DNA from: a virus | Direction: 5' to 3' (one strand) | IMG/VR virus record: IMGVR_UViG_3300042332_000310 | Coordinates: 3,277-67,276 of that record | DNA: 64,000 bases | Shown: positions 7,151-9,550 of the stretch, piece by piece | Position numbering within the stretch: position 1 is the stretch's first letter | Layout of the letters: each line of letters begins with the position of its first letter | Translations under genes and position numbers: made by a program | The notes under the pieces: model-generated | Database searches by the model: none | Told to the model about the DNA's origin: nothing | The model's input: only the letters and a program-made list of their open reading frames with translations

Positions 7151-7156
7151 AATAAA

Positions 7157-7188
7157 TTTGGTGGTTTAAAATAAGCTACTTAATTTTG
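7157..7188 (+). promoter_or_regulatory. Bacteroidota sigma-A type promoter
   Basis: TTTG(7157-7160)-20 nt-TAATTTTG(7181-7188), full consensus. Confidence 0.8.
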
Positions 7189-7192
7189 TGTT

Positions 7193-7293
7193 GCAAATCC
7201 GATAAGGTAAGGGAGATACGTTATCGGGTATGTTTAAAGAACTAACCCTTCTTAAGATATGCCCATCAAAATCTCCCTTTGGTGGGCTTTTTT
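7193..7293 (+). ncRNA. candidate kissing-loop small RNA or attenuator
   Basis: Hairpin 7197-7229 exposes GGGAGA(T); terminator hairpin 7261-7287 has loop ATCTCCC and is followed by T6. Confidence 0.55.
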
Positions 7294-7527
7294 ATCACCC
7301 TATCTGATGTAGTCAAAGCAATATGGCTACTGCACCTACTGATATCTGCCTGAAGTTAAGTACGGCTGTCCATCATATGGGAAACGCATAAGGTCTAAAC
7401 CTCCGATATTTATTCTTACACTTTCCTTTGCATTTGCAATGGGGGAGGGTAGGGAGGGGGTGTAACACAGATAATCAACTACATACAAGAGGCTGTCAAA
7501 CAGCCGTAAAAAATAAAGTAAAAAATA

Positions 7528-7559
7528 TTTGGATAGTAGTATAGTATTTTGTAATTTCA
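7528..7559 (+). promoter_or_regulatory. Bacteroidota sigma-A type promoter
   Basis: TTTG(7528-7531)-20 nt-TAATTTCA(7552-7559) upstream of erf. Confidence 0.55.
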
Positions 7560-7581
7560 CAAACAATAAAAAAAATAACCA

Positions 7582-8157
7582 ATGAAGAGTTTATTAACAG
7601 CATTAGCTAAGTTTCAGCAGGAATGTCCTGCAGTAGAGAAGGGTAAGGATAACCCATTCTTTAAGTCAAAGTATGCAGGTTTAGATGCAATACAGTATGT
7701 AATACAGCCAGTATTATCTAAGCATGGATTAGTGGTAACTCAATGTAATATTGCGACAGACGGTGGTCTGTTTGTAGAGACAAGAGTATATCATGCAGAT
7801 AGTGAAGACAAGTACATATCGTCTATATTCCCTATCATCATTCAAAAGAATACAGCTCAAGATTATGGTAGTGCTGTTAGCTATGCTAAGAGATACTCAT
7901 TAACAGGAGTATTGAATGTAAGAGTAGTAGATGAAAGTGATGACGATGGCAATACAGCATCTGTTCAGCATCCACAAGTTGAGAAGAAAGCAGCACCTAT
8001 CGTAAAGAAAGTAGCTGTTAAGCTGCCTGAATTAGTAGAAGGTACTGATATATTTTTTGTAGTACAAAAGGCTATGAAAGAAGGACAGACTACTATTGAA
8101 AGATTAAAGACTAAATATATCTTATCTAAAGATGTAGAAGCTAAACTAACTAAATAA
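7582..8157 (+). CDS. erf: ERF family single-strand annealing protein
   Basis: ALAKFQ...KDNPFFKSKYA.L...AQDYGSAVSYAKRYSL...DDDGN. Confidence 0.92.
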   Translation: MKSLLTALAKFQQECPAVEKGKDNPFFKSKYAGLDAIQYVIQPVLSKHGLVVTQCNIATDGGLFVETRVYHADSEDKYISSIFPIIIQKNTAQDYGSAVSYAKRYSLTGVLNVRVVDESDDDGNTASVQHPQVEKKAAPIVKKVAVKLPELVEGTDIFFVVQKAMKEGQTTIERLKTKYILSKDVEAKLTK

Positions 8158-8162
8158 ATTAT

Positions 8163-8414
8163 ATGCAAGCATCTAACGAAACATACCTTGATGTAGAGAA
8201 TAATCAAAAGTCTGTTGAAGAACAGCTAAGAGAAAGAATACTTAGACTAGAGTCTTTACTAGAAGATACAAGGGATGAGATTCAAATCATACAGACAGAA
8301 CTAGAGTCTATACTTAACGCACTGTATAATGCAGTAGAGAATGGAGTACAGCTCAATATAGGTATAGTAGTAGGACAAACAATGTCTAAACTATCCGATA
8401 TAATAGGCAAATAA
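8163..8414 (+). CDS. coiled-coil hypothetical protein
   Basis: 83 aa with heptad pattern. Confidence 0.7.
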   Translation: MQASNETYLDVENNQKSVEEQLRERILRLESLLEDTRDEIQIIQTELESILNALYNAVENGVQLNIGIVVGQTMSKLSDIIGK

Positions 8415-8418
8415 AAAT

Positions 8419-8660
8419 ATTGCCCTCTCTGTCATCTATTTTTAATAATAAAATTTAACAACAAGATAGTAATTGCGGGTAAATTTGACGGAGGGGGTAA
8501 TTTATTTTAAGATATAAAAGCCATAGTAATTGATAATCCTTGAGGTACAGCCTTTGACCTGGAATAGACACAGCTTTCTTGAAATTTGTATGCTATGGTG
8601 ACGATTCCAATAACAATAAAGAAAGCAAGGGCGTTTAGGATTGTACGAGAACAATTCATT
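8419..8660 (+). ncRNA. candidate structured RNA(s): 16-bp stem followed by a multi-pseudoknot domain
   Basis: Seven complementary segment pairs in a non-coding gap; G-U pairs favour the + strand. Confidence 0.5.
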
Positions 8661-8679
8661 TTTTAAAATATAATTACAT

Positions 8680-8784
8680 ATGAATAAAGAAGATAAAGAT
8701 GAATTATATGGTTATATAGTAATGGTATTTATACCTTTAATACTTACAACAATGTTATACATCAAGAAACACCTTTTTAAATAA
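8680..8784 (+). CDS. small membrane protein (34 aa)
   Basis: MNKEDKDELYGYIVMVFIPLILTTMLYIKKHLFK read by hand; one hydrophobic segment. Confidence 0.5.
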   Translation: MNKEDKDELYGYIVMVFIPLILTTMLYIKKHLFK

Positions 8785-8794
8785 AACAAAACCA

Positions 8795-9550
8795 ATGATA
8801 ACACTAGAAAACCTACAAGAGCGACCACTTAGCTACAGCTCTCTAAAAGAATTTGCTAAGAGTCCAAGACACTACATATCCTATCTAAACAAAGAAAGGA
8901 AGTCAACACCTGCAATGGAGTTTGGTAGCTTAGTACACTGTCTGTTATTACAGCCAGAAGAATTTGCAATGAACTACATGGTTGCACCTAACCTTGATAG
9001 AAGAACTAAAGATGGCAAGGCAGAGTATGAGAAGTTCCTAGAAGCAAGCAATGGCAAAACTGTTGTAAGCGCTGATGATTACAATAATGCGTATGACCTA
9101 GTAGCTAATGCAAAAGAAAATCAATTGATATCTGATGCTGTTATGGGATGCAAGAGTTTTGAATCAGAGTGGAGAGCAGAGATAGGAGGCCTTCCTGTAA
9201 GGGGATTCTTTGATGGAGAAGCGGATGATTATATCCTAGAAGTAAAGACAACCAATGATGCAGAACCAAGAACGCTCATCAATGATTTCTACAAAAGAAT
9301 GTACCATATCCAAGCAGGCTTATACAATTTAGTATCAGAAAAACCAATCAAATACTTAGTTGTTGAGACAACAGCACCATACAATTCATACATTGCATTA
9401 GCAAGTGATAAGTATGTAAATGCAGGTAGAAAAAGAGCATTAGACCTTATTGAAGGGTTTAAATATTGTATGGATAATCAAGAATTCCATAAAGGATATG
9501 AACATTATCACGGTAGTATTTCTATAGATTTACCCCATTGGGCAGATTAG
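8795..9550 (+). CDS. RecE/exonuclease VIII-like PD-(D/E)XK nuclease (DUF3799-like)
   Basis: LSYSSLK...SPRHY...TPAMEFGSLVH...RGFFD...EVKTT...YHIQAGLY. Confidence 0.88.
   Translation: MITLENLQERPLSYSSLKEFAKSPRHYISYLNKERKSTPAMEFGSLVHCLLLQPEEFAMNYMVAPNLDRRTKDGKAEYEKFLEASNGKTVVSADDYNNAYDLVANAKENQLISDAVMGCKSFESEWRAEIGGLPVRGFFDGEADDYILEVKTTNDAEPRTLINDFYKRMYHIQAGLYNLVSEKPIKYLVVETTAPYNSYIALASDKYVNAGRKRALDLIEGFKYCMDNQEFHKGYEHYHGSISIDLPHWAD

What the first reader, a model, noticed from the sequence alone, without database searches (positions are those of the whole stretch)
8520..8656. Candidate double-pseudoknot RNA between erf and the RecE-like gene
Seen: six complementary pairs in 137 nt: GCCATAGTA(8520-28)/TGCTATGGT(8591-99), AATTG(8528-32)/CAATT(8652-56), ATAATCCT(8533-40)/AGGATTGT(8637-44), GCCTTTG(8550-56)/CAAGGGC(8626-32), TGGAAT(8560-65)/ATTCCA(8604-09), GCTTTCTT(8573-80)/AAGAAAGC(8619-26). 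They use almost non-overlapping bases and two of them cross the others. Inference: a compact ribozyme-, riboswitch- or decoy-like RNA; I cannot match it to a family I know.
Basis: partly seen in the sequence, partly recalled or inferred. Interest (0 to 1): 0.72.

Follow-up and report, generated by a model that had tools for sequence, protein, structure and literature searches.

The report
New double-pseudoknot RNA in lake phages
The flagged stretch is a real, evolutionarily conserved, intricately folded small RNA found once per genome in many uncultured freshwater phages, matching no catalogued RNA family, and its function is still unknown.

Summary
The six complementarities exist exactly as listed. 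In this one sequence they are no more than chance gives (MFE z -1.14; stem counts equal to shuffles).

Comparative data make it real. A covariance model finds one copy in the window (8515-8669, + strand, 104 bits) and one in each of 42 IMG/VR phage contigs. Reader helices 1, 4 and 6 covary strongly. Helices 2, 3 and 5 do not.

The true fold adds a P2 hairpin, a P3b helix and a 3' hairpin with a conserved C[C/G]AGA loop. It contains two pseudoknots. G-U pairs number 26 against 0 A-C, so the + strand RNA folds.

The 50-aa minus-strand ORF that covers it is spurious. It carries stops in 2 of 4 distinct relatives, and no frame is conserved in distant members.

No Rfam 15 family matches. Nothing was found in 50,697 GenBank phages or in the 151 Bacteroidota genomes sampled.

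The element sits co-oriented inside replication and recombination operons. It ends in a U-tract (21 of 34) or abuts a tRNA-like gene (8 of 34).

Best reading: a discrete stable phage RNA of a new family. Its function is inferred, not shown.

The parts
8515..8669 (+). Whole element as delimited by covariance model R1 (about 150 nt RNA)
   Evidence: cmsearch 104.4 bits, E 2.4e-23, the only hit in the 64 kb window
8520..8528 (+). It pairs with 8591-8599, inside the loop of P3b, forming pseudoknot 1
   Evidence: Cognate 5' region/loop duplex -12.33 kcal/mol against -7.94 +/- 0.55 for deranged partners, 0 of 5000, 20 representatives. The arm sequences differ completely between clades
8537..8539 (+). 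P2a 5' arm (part of the invariant CCUUG). It pairs with 8561-8563
   Evidence: RNAalifold predicts it unprompted. The outer pair is CG 15, AU 9, UA 3, GU 2, UG 1
8544..8547 (+). P2b 5' arm.
   Evidence: 97.1% of cells paired, and all 4 pairs change on both sides. L008 changes U-A to C-G at 8546/8557
8551..8555 (+). It pairs with 8627-8631, forming pseudoknot 2
   Evidence: 4 of 5 pairs change on both sides, 85-86% paired
8556..8563 (+). 3' arms of P2b (8556-59) and P2a (8561-63)
8565..8573 (+). Conserved junction. The family consensus is UAGACAUAG and the window reads UAGACACAG
   Evidence: Invariant or nearly invariant columns in A3
8573..8580 (+). It pairs with 8619-8626
   Evidence: 98.3-98.5% paired, and 6 of 8 pairs change on both sides
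8586..8589 (+). P3b 5' arm.
   Evidence: Cognate -4.03 against deranged -2.08 +/- 0.40 kcal/mol, 0 of 5000. RNAalifold also predicts it
8591..8599 (+). H1 3' arm
8613..8631 (+). 3' arms of P3b (8613-16), P3/H6 (8619-26) and H4 (8627-31). A8618 and A8619 are invariant
8638..8657 (+). P4 hairpin (8638-44/8651-57), loop ACGAGA (family C[C/G]AGA).
   Evidence: A stem of 5-8 bp around the conserved loop in 34 of 34 members, with 16 distinct stem sequences
8659..8664 (+). U6 tract directly after P4. Probable 3' end (weak intrinsic terminator)
   Evidence: A T-run of >=4 within 14 nt after P4 in 21 of 34 members. 8 of the other 13 have a tRNA-like gene start there instead
8507..8659 (-). 50-aa hydrophobic ORF antisense to the RNA. 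Judged spurious
   Evidence: TAA at codon 27 plus a 1-nt insertion in L007, and TGA at codon 18 in L008. Variable sites by codon position are 10/7/5. No open frame on either strand in distant members

Best explanation
SHOWN. Window 8515-8669 (+) encodes one member of a previously uncatalogued family of phage RNAs of about 145-170 nt. The fold is conserved by compensatory change and has these parts:
- H1 joins the 5' end to the apical loop of P3b (pseudoknot 1).
- P2a/P2b form a hairpin whose loop pairs with the strand just 3' of P3 (H4, pseudoknot 2).
- P3 and P3b form an interrupted stem.
- There are invariant junctions (CCUUG, UAGACAUAG, AUAA).
- A 3' hairpin, P4, carries a conserved C[C/G]AGA loop.

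It is the + strand RNA that folds. There is one copy per phage genome in the records searched whole. The element is always co-oriented with its neighbours, inside early replication and recombination operons (ERF, PD-(D/E)XK exonuclease, SF2 DNA helicase). It is not detected in syntenic relatives searched whole. The antisense 50-aa ORF is not a gene. I put the existence of this structured RNA family at about 0.93.

INFERRED (about 0.55, which is the confidence given for this explanation as a whole). The RNA is released as a discrete, stable small RNA. It is co-transcribed with the upstream gene. Its 3' end is set by P4 plus the U tract, or by RNase P cleavage at the 5' end of the tRNA that abuts it in other lineages. 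Its 5' end comes from processing, or from a tRNA-like gene in one lineage. The compact double-pseudoknot body then acts as a specific binding surface for a host or phage protein (an RNP or decoy used in take-over or counter-defence), not as an mRNA leader. Partner and effect are unknown.
For: FAMILY.
- nhmmer with the window-clade profile finds distant + strand copies in related loci, with E from 8e-16 to 8e-9 in 7 loci.
- A conserved motif pattern hits 33 IMG/VR contigs.
- Model R1 hits 43 of 83 sources, one hit each. This is 16 of 56 PDDEXK-related loci, 26 of 26 pattern loci, and the window. Five loci not used to build the model score E 1e-18 to 1e-19.

STRUCTURE.
- On the MAFFT alignment A3, 88.4% of cells are paired, against 70.8% shuffled (0 of 500) and 37-56% slid. 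19 of 24 pairs change on both sides.
- On A4, 87.9% are paired against 70.6%, and 19 of 26 pairs change on both sides.
- H1 and P3b pass cognate versus deranged duplex tests, 0 of 5000 each.
- P4 is present in 34 of 34 members, with 16 distinct stems.
- RNAalifold recovers P2a, P2b, P3 and P3b on its own.

STRAND. G-U 26 against A-C 0 among 493 cells.

NOT CODING..

DISCRETE RNA.
- 21 of 34 members have a T-run of >=4 after P4. 8 of the other 13 run straight into a tRNA-like gene.
- The L017 tRNA is confirmed by ARAGORN and by Rfam at 41.2 bits. It starts at 334, while the element's model match ends at 341.
- In L065 an ARAGORN tRNA-like gene ends exactly where the element starts.
- Downstream genes differ between lineages while every part of the RNA, P4 loop included, is kept.

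ACCESSORY, SINGLE COPY.
- 5 of 5 positive-control records have exactly one copy.
- 0 of 5 syntenic or related records have one. These include the complete Maribacter phage Panino, where erf, a hypothetical gene and exoVIII abut without a gap.
Against: - No promoter is conserved in front of it. In many loci the upstream gene ends 0-23 nt before the element. Flanking long ORFs are on the same strand in 30 of 31 cases upstream and 39 of 40 downstream. This fits a cis-acting leader equally well.
- In 13 loci the nearest long downstream ORF is the same SF2 helicase gene. Where gaps were measured, its start codon lies 0-34 nt after the element.
- P4 is a weak hairpin of 5-8 bp with few G-C pairs. 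The terminator scan calls nothing here.
- Contigs from two RNA libraries bridge the element and the nuclease gene. If these are RNA, P4 does not stop all transcripts.
- Only the L017 and L018 tRNAs are called by a program. The other tRNA-like neighbours are judged from an alignment.
- No transcript ends, abundance or partner have been seen.
Confidence: 0.55

Rival explanations
1. It is a cis-acting leader or attenuator, riboswitch-like or factor-binding. The double-pseudoknot domain senses a ligand or protein and decides whether transcription stops at P4 plus the U tract or reads through into the downstream replication or recombination gene.
For: - It is embedded in operons, co-oriented with its neighbours, with no conserved promoter.
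- P4 plus a U tract lies directly before the next start codon in most members.
- The same SF2 helicase gene follows in 13 loci.
- Many invariant junction nucleotides resemble an aptamer core.
- RNA-library contigs span the element and the nuclease gene.
Against: - No conserved alternative (antiterminator) pairing was found.
- The P4 loop is conserved in sequence, which is unusual for an expression platform.
- In 8 of 34 members the U tract is missing and a tRNA-like gene follows.
- Downstream genes are heterogeneous.
- The motif was not found in bacterial genomes, whereas phage riboswitch classes, as I recall, usually also occur in bacteria.
Confidence: 0.25
2. It is a ribozyme, either self-cleaving or another catalytic RNA, that processes the polycistronic early transcript.
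For: - It has a complex pseudoknotted core with invariant junction nucleotides.
- It sits in intergenic positions in phage operons and next to tRNA genes, settings where I recall self-cleaving ribozymes being common.
Against: - No Rfam ribozyme model matches, even at E <= 10.
- The helix order differs from HDV-like, twister and glmS as I recall them.
- At 145-170 nt it is larger than most self-cleaving classes.
- There is one copy per genome and no association with other ribozymes.
Confidence: 0.08
3. The functional unit is the minus-strand 50-aa hydrophobic ORF (8507-8659). It would be a small membrane protein, or a type I toxin with the + strand as its antisense RNA.
For: - An ATG-to-stop ORF with a hydrophobic stretch that reads like a single transmembrane helix (my reading of the sequence) covers the region.
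- A public gene caller predicted a 76-aa protein 84% identical to it.
Against: - There are in-frame stops in L007 (codon 27, plus a frameshift) and L008 (codon 18), so 2 of 4 distinct relatives are interrupted.
- The 22 variable sites fall 10/7/5 on codon positions 1/2/3, the reverse of a coding pattern.
- All six frames are closed in distant family members that keep the RNA fold.
- There is no Pfam hit.
Confidence: 0.02
4. It is a DNA-level element, either a structured single-stranded origin or a primosome-assembly signal in the replication module.
For: It is located among replication and recombination genes, next to an A+T-rich tract.
Against: - The pseudoknot topology, the strong strand asymmetry (26 G-U against 0 A-C) and the terminator-or-tRNA 3' context fit RNA.
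- It is not detected in relatives with the same replication genes, so it is not a core origin.
Confidence: 0.03
5. It is chance complementarity in neutral intergenic sequence.
For: Single-sequence statistics are unremarkable.
Against: - There are 43 model hits with E down to 3e-36.
- There are compensatory changes in five helices and two more by duplex tests.
- The element is kept intact while gene-sized insertions and deletions occur on both sides in close relatives.
Confidence: 0.01

Closest known systems
Candidate structured RNAs catalogued from IMG/VR (csRNAs 'DNAVirus_X', PMC10690425; passages of the main text read, supplements closed)
   Same: Both concern covariation-supported, uncharacterised RNA motifs in uncultured phage contigs of the same collection. 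Some of the catalogued motifs sit directly upstream of replication genes or contain terminators.
   Different: That catalogue's motifs are 29-151 nt long (mean 67), and it predicts nested structures. The passages I read (term searches, including helicase, ResIII, DEAD and ERF) name no motif next to ERF or helicase genes. Whether part of this element is among the 8,495 entries could not be checked.
Stable small RNAs encoded in phage tRNA gene clusters (T4 'species 1/2' RNAs; recalled, no call)
   Same: Both are discrete phage RNAs of about 120-140 nt with unknown function, made together with tRNAs and presumably trimmed by tRNA-processing enzymes.
   Different: Most members of this family are not next to tRNAs, and they lie in replication and recombination operons of phages whose closest cultured relatives infect Flavobacteriaceae.
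Double-pseudoknot ribozymes (HDV-like, twister, glmS)
   Same: They share a compact core built from crossing helices with invariant junction nucleotides.
   Different: No Rfam model matches at E <= 10. The order of helix strands here (1, 2a, 2b, 4, 2b', 2a', 3, 3b, 1', 3b', 3', 4', P4) is unlike those classes as I recall them. Cleavage was not tested.
Riboswitch aptamer plus intrinsic-terminator expression platform
   Same: There is a conserved, complex 5' domain followed by a hairpin and U tract just upstream of a gene.
   Different: No conserved mutually exclusive pairing was found. The terminator-like hairpin has a conserved loop. Some members lack the U tract and precede tRNA-like genes. 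No bacterial copies were found.
Type I toxin-antitoxin loci (small hydrophobic ORF with an overlapping antisense RNA)
   Same: In the window clade a 50-aa hydrophobic ORF lies exactly antisense to a structured RNA.
   Different: The ORF is interrupted in 2 of 4 distinct relatives and absent from the rest of the family. Only the RNA is conserved.
Cis-acting processive antitermination RNAs (HK022 put, EAR; recalled)
   Same: These are structured RNAs in operons that act on the transcribing polymerase. The EAR RNA has a pseudoknot.
   Different: No Rfam match. A promoter-proximal position was not shown. This element is larger and carries its own terminator-like hairpin.

Membership tests
Any Rfam 15 family (4,227 models) | Covariance-model score at or above the family's gathering score | tested here: not met
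   0 matches on the whole window at gathering threshold. None overlaps the element at E <= 10 in window 8000-9200 or in L072 100-420 (one lncRNA-model match at E 9.7 overlaps only its 5' edge). Over 23 family-bearing loci only tRNA and tmRNA were found, elsewhere.
Intrinsic (Rho-independent) terminator, for P4 | Stable G+C-rich hairpin immediately followed by a U tract | tested here: inconclusive
   The hairpin is present in 34 of 34 members, but it is only 5-8 bp and G+C-poor. A T-run of >=4 within 14 nt follows in 21 of 34. The consensus scan finds no terminator in 8000-9200.
Riboswitch | Conserved aptamer fold supported by covariation | tested here: met
Riboswitch | Expression platform with a conserved alternative pairing that competes with the terminator | tested here: not met
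No other candidate was seen in A4.
Riboswitch | Ligand binding, and a coherent set of regulated genes | not testable with these tools
   Downstream genes are SF2 helicase (13 loci), PD-(D/E)XK nuclease, ERF, small ORFs and tRNA-like genes.
Self-cleaving ribozyme classes | Match to a class model or its core motif | tested here: not met
Self-cleaving ribozyme classes | Site-specific self-scission | not testable with these tools
   This needs an in vitro transcript assay.
Type I toxin-antitoxin | Small hydrophobic ORF kept open under purifying selection | tested here: not met
   Stops in L007 and L008. Codon-position tally 10/7/5. No ORF in distant members.
tRNA / tmRNA | Cloverleaf or tRNA-like domain detected by ARAGORN or Rfam | tested here: not met
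   No tRNA or tmRNA in the window. The element itself is never called one.
IMG/VR csRNA catalogue (PMC10690425) | Overlap with one of its 8,495 covariance models | not testable with these tools
In the passages returned by my term searches of the main text, no such motif is described.

The most novel reading that the evidence does not exclude
The element is the founding member of a new functional RNA class specific to phages whose closest cultured relatives infect Flavobacteriia. It would be one of three things: a new ribozyme, a new ligand- or protein-sensing switch that gates the early-to-replication transition, or an RNA decoy that neutralises a host defence or RNA-processing protein. Its double-pseudoknot core (5' end locked into the P3b loop, P2 loop locked to the strand after P3) would be the active or recognition site.
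Probability: 0.3. Interest if true: 0.9.

Novelty: categorically new. Interest (0 to 1): 0.78.

Why it matters
Structured RNAs of this complexity are few. This one has seven helices, two pseudoknots and about 25 invariant positions, kept across phages whose neighbouring nuclease proteins are only 44-60% identical. As I recall, RNAs like this have usually turned out to be ribozymes, riboswitches or RNP scaffolds.

This element is phage-restricted as far as searched. It is single-copy and accessory, and it sits in the early replication and recombination region. That is the profile of a take-over or counter-defence factor, here made of RNA.

It occurs in freshwater phage populations detected in sequencing runs from 14 studies. 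It also gives a concrete, alignable target with a model in hand for structure probing, cleavage assays and pull-downs.

The analysis also corrects public annotation. The hypothetical protein called on the opposite strand is an artefact.

Tried and rejected
- Minus-strand ORF as the explanation. Pursued first and rejected because of stops, the codon-position pattern and the lack of a conserved frame.
- Searches with the ORF peptide. They found nothing in viral contigs or GenBank phages. The first DNA pattern, taken from the window clade, found nothing in viral contigs.
- A sigma-70-like promoter (TTGACG-17-TAAGAT, 8485-8513) would start the RNA near 8520. It is not kept in L005/L006 (9-nt deletion) or L007 (gene inserted). 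Promoter-like sites are no more frequent than in shuffles (6 against 5.3). Dropped.
- A Bacteroidota-type -7 box (TAAATTTG, 8480-87). It is kept in L005-L007 but altered in L004. The full -33/-7 pattern occurs 8 times in the window against 3.9 expected, and 4 of 100 shuffles reach 8. None is in front of the element. Left open.
- RNA-library contigs. They show the region is present and bridged to the nuclease gene, but give no strand, ends or level, and DNA carry-over cannot be excluded. Not used as evidence of transcription.
- A loop-loop contact for the P4 loop, and a K-turn in the P3/P3b internal loop. Both were considered by eye and neither was supported.
- Literature. A sequence-motif search, keyword searches and passages of a 2026 preprint on noncoding-sequence mapping turned up no description of this RNA.

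Full report
THE OBSERVATION

The six complementary segment pairs are present at the stated coordinates, with G-T counted as wobble. They lie between an ERF single-strand annealing gene (7582-8157, Pfam ERF 2e-28) and a PD-(D/E)XK/DUF3799 nuclease gene (8795-9550, 3.3e-21).

Judged on this one sequence they are not remarkable:
- The + strand MFE is -27.5 kcal/mol, z = -1.14. The minus strand has z = +0.21.
- Counts of non-overlapping stems equal those of dinucleotide shuffles: 5 against 5.0 for >=5 bp, and 4 against 3.6 for >=6 bp. Stems of >=8 bp number 3 against 1.3, reached by 51 of 1000 shuffles.

A COMPETING READING, TESTED AND REJECTED

The interval is exactly covered by a minus-strand ORF (8507-8659) of 50 aa with a hydrophobic stretch that reads like one transmembrane helix. 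A public gene caller had predicted a 76-aa protein 84% identical to it.

Five metagenome loci carry close relatives of the region. L004 is almost identical to the window and L005 equals L006, so with L007 and L008 there are four distinct relatives. The evidence against a gene is this:
- In L007 the frame has TAA at codon 27 and a 1-nt insertion. In L008 it has TGA at codon 18.
- The 22 variable sites within the ORF fall 10, 7 and 5 on codon positions 1, 2 and 3.
- In distant members of the family (below) every one of the six frames is closed.

The ORF is therefore not a conserved gene.

A FAMILY

In close relatives the block at about 8505-8668 stays intact while gene-sized pieces come and go on both sides:
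- A 460-nt insertion lies at 8503/8506 in L007.
- About 300 nt are inserted before the nuclease gene in L004 and L008.
- 8669-8774 is missing in L005-L007.

I then collected 56 IMG/VR loci that encode relatives of the nuclease. An nhmmer profile of the block found copies on the same strand as the nuclease gene in L060 (8e-16) and in L016, L017, L018, L014, L013 and L015 (1e-9 to 1e-12). Weaker hits came in L059, L022 and L027.

A motif taken from these copies (CCTTGTACC, 8-14 nt, GGTTGGNNTAGACATAG) matched 33 IMG/VR contigs of 5-147 kb. It matched none of 185,579 species genomes.

A covariance model (R1) then hit 43 of 83 sources, once each:
- the window (8515-8669, +, 104.4 bits, E 2.4e-23);
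- 16 of the 56 nuclease-related loci;
- 26 of 26 non-redundant pattern loci.

L019, L020, L021, L024 and L025 had not been used to build the model, yet they score E 1e-18 to 1e-19.

Searched over whole records, 5 of 5 carriers (62-147 kb, two of them complete) hold exactly one copy.

THE STRUCTURE

The MAFFT alignment of 29 sequences (A3) is not fitted to any structure.
- 88.4% of cells pair, against 70.8% in shuffles (0 of 500) and 37-56% when partners are slid.
- 19 of 24 pairs change on both sides.

On the model-based alignment of 34 sequences (A4), with P2a and P2b added although neither was in the model, 87.9% pair against 70.6%. 19 of 26 pairs change on both sides. RNAalifold independently returns P2a, P2b, P3 and P3b.

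I tested them by duplex energy between cognate and non-cognate partners, using 20 representatives less than 80% identical to one another:
- H1: -12.33 against -7.94 +/- 0.55 kcal/mol, 0 of 5000 derangements as low.
- P3b: -4.03 against -2.08 +/- 0.40 kcal/mol, 0 of 5000.

The H1 arm sequences are entirely different in different clades, yet always complementary.

P4 is present in 34 of 34 members. It has 16 distinct stem sequences around a conserved C[C/G]AGA loop.

They are not conserved. The 3' arms of helices 2 and 3 are the two arms of P4.

In window coordinates the supported fold is:
- H1: 8520-28/8591-99
- P2a: 8537-39/8561-63
- P2b: 8544-47/8556-59
- H4: 8551-55/8627-31
- P3: 8573-80/8619-26
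- P3b: 8586-89/8613-16
- P4: 8638-44/8651-57
- U6: 8659-64

H1 crosses P3 and P3b. H4 crosses P2 and H1.

Among 493 cells of P2b, H4 and P3 there are 26 G-U pairs and no A-C. The folding strand is therefore the + strand RNA.

CONTEXT

The nearest long ORFs are on the element's strand in 30 of 31 cases upstream and 39 of 40 downstream.
- In 13 loci the nearest long downstream ORF is the same SF2 DNA helicase gene (ResIII/Helicase_C, phrog_16). Where gaps were measured, its start lies 0-34 nt after the element.
- In the window clade and several others the neighbours are ERF and the PD-(D/E)XK nuclease.
- No promoter is conserved in front of the element. Often the upstream gene ends 0-23 nt before it.

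After P4, 21 of 34 members have a T-run of >=4 within 14 nt. Of the 13 that do not, 8 run directly into a tRNA-like gene. The L017 gene is confirmed by ARAGORN and by Rfam (41.2 bits) and starts at 334, while the element's model match ends at 341. The rest I judge from their alignment to it. In L065 an ARAGORN tRNA-like gene ends where the element begins.

The element is accessory. R1 finds nothing in the whole records of L002, L003, L009 and L012, whose nucleases are 56-60% identical but whose records are only 53-69% complete. It also finds nothing in the complete genome of Maribacter phage Panino, where erf, a small gene and exonuclease VIII abut without a gap.

The window's primase/helicase has its closest cultured relatives in phages of Flavobacteriaceae, 15 of 18 records. 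The only genome-collection hits for the nuclease are two Bacteroidota MAG contigs. The host is therefore probably a freshwater member of Flavobacteriia. R1 found nothing in those two Bacteroidota MAG genomes.

Near-identical DNA occurs in lake and freshwater runs from 14 studies. Contigs of three RNA libraries cover the element, and two of them bridge it to the nuclease gene. Contigs give no strand or ends, and DNA carry-over cannot be excluded.

WHAT IT IS NOT

- No Rfam 15 family matches.
- blastn of three family members finds nothing in 50,697 GenBank phage records.
- R1 finds nothing in a sample of 151 Bacteroidota genomes.
- The catalogue of 8,495 IMG/VR candidate RNAs (PMC10690425; passages of the main text read) describes no such motif in the passages returned by my term searches. 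Its supplementary models, which I could not open, may include part of it.
- Three further literature look-ups found no description.

HOW IT MOST LIKELY WORKS

Shown: this is a conserved, single-copy, accessory, + strand RNA with a double-pseudoknot fold, embedded in early replication and recombination operons.

Inferred: every member ends either in a hairpin plus U tract or against a tRNA-like gene. Every part of the RNA, including the P4 loop, is kept whatever gene follows. For these two reasons I favour (about 0.55) a discrete stable small RNA that is released from the operon transcript and acts through its fold as a binding surface for a protein.

The main rival (about 0.25) is a cis-acting attenuator or riboswitch-like leader for the downstream replication gene. 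In its favour are the operon-internal position and the recurrent helicase gene. Against it are the lack of any conserved alternative pairing and the members followed by tRNA-like genes.

The remaining readings, and their approximate weights, are:
- a ribozyme (0.08);
- a DNA-level origin signal (0.03);
- the antisense ORF (0.02);
- chance (0.01).

VERDICT

It is a new, widespread and structurally complex phage RNA family. Its structure is well supported. Its function is open.

Noticed in passing
window 8412-8516 (+): The 100 nt between the 83-aa gene and the element fold into a long stem, with arms near 8419-8432 and 8487-8500, followed by a U-rich run. The energy is -28 kcal/mol, z = -5.3, and 0 of 200 shuffles fold as well. 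The stem is kept in L004-L007, with two mismatches in L005/L006. It may be a terminator or a processing site for the erf operon.
   Followed up: partly
window 7151-7581: A 430-nt gap without a long ORF lies upstream of erf. It starts with one of the eight matches to the Bacteroidota-type promoter pattern TTTG-N17-23-TANNTTTG (7157-7188, +; 8 found against 3.9 expected in the window).
   Followed up: no
window 8680-8784 (+): A 34-aa ORF with a hydrophobic core lies between the element and the nuclease gene. It is absent from L005-L007. L003 has a different hydrophobic 42-aa ORF at the same place, and L004 and L008 have a 101-aa gene there. This is a hot spot for small-gene exchange.
   Followed up: partly
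L007 633-1097 (locus coordinates, minus strand of the locus): A 154-aa gene is inserted between the upstream hairpin and the element in one close relative. Its stop lies at the left edge of the element.
   Followed up: no
L019 about 396-590; L020, L024 and L084 at the matching place: Directly after the element lies a long tRNA-like gene. It has an acceptor-like 5' end, a hairpin inserted in the D-arm region, and a GGTTCGAATCC T-arm. Neither ARAGORN nor Rfam calls it (nothing at E <= 1). The shorter L017 version is a called tRNA of 83 nt.
   Followed up: partly
L068 4304-4721 and L080 11686-12133: Two phages that carry the element also encode a full tmRNA (Rfam 65 and 76 bits; ARAGORN gives the tag peptides) and tRNAs.
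   Followed up: no
L064 2602-3318; also L078 and L086: A 238-aa GIY-YIG/NUMOD1 homing-endonuclease-like gene lies two genes upstream of the element in three helicase-clade contigs.
   Followed up: no
protein P0002 (public prediction, 76 aa): This public gene call, found on 1 contig, corresponds to the antisense strand of the RNA in an L005/L006-like phage. It is open to 76 aa there only because a 9-nt deletion removed the stop. It is probably a false gene call.
   Followed up: yes
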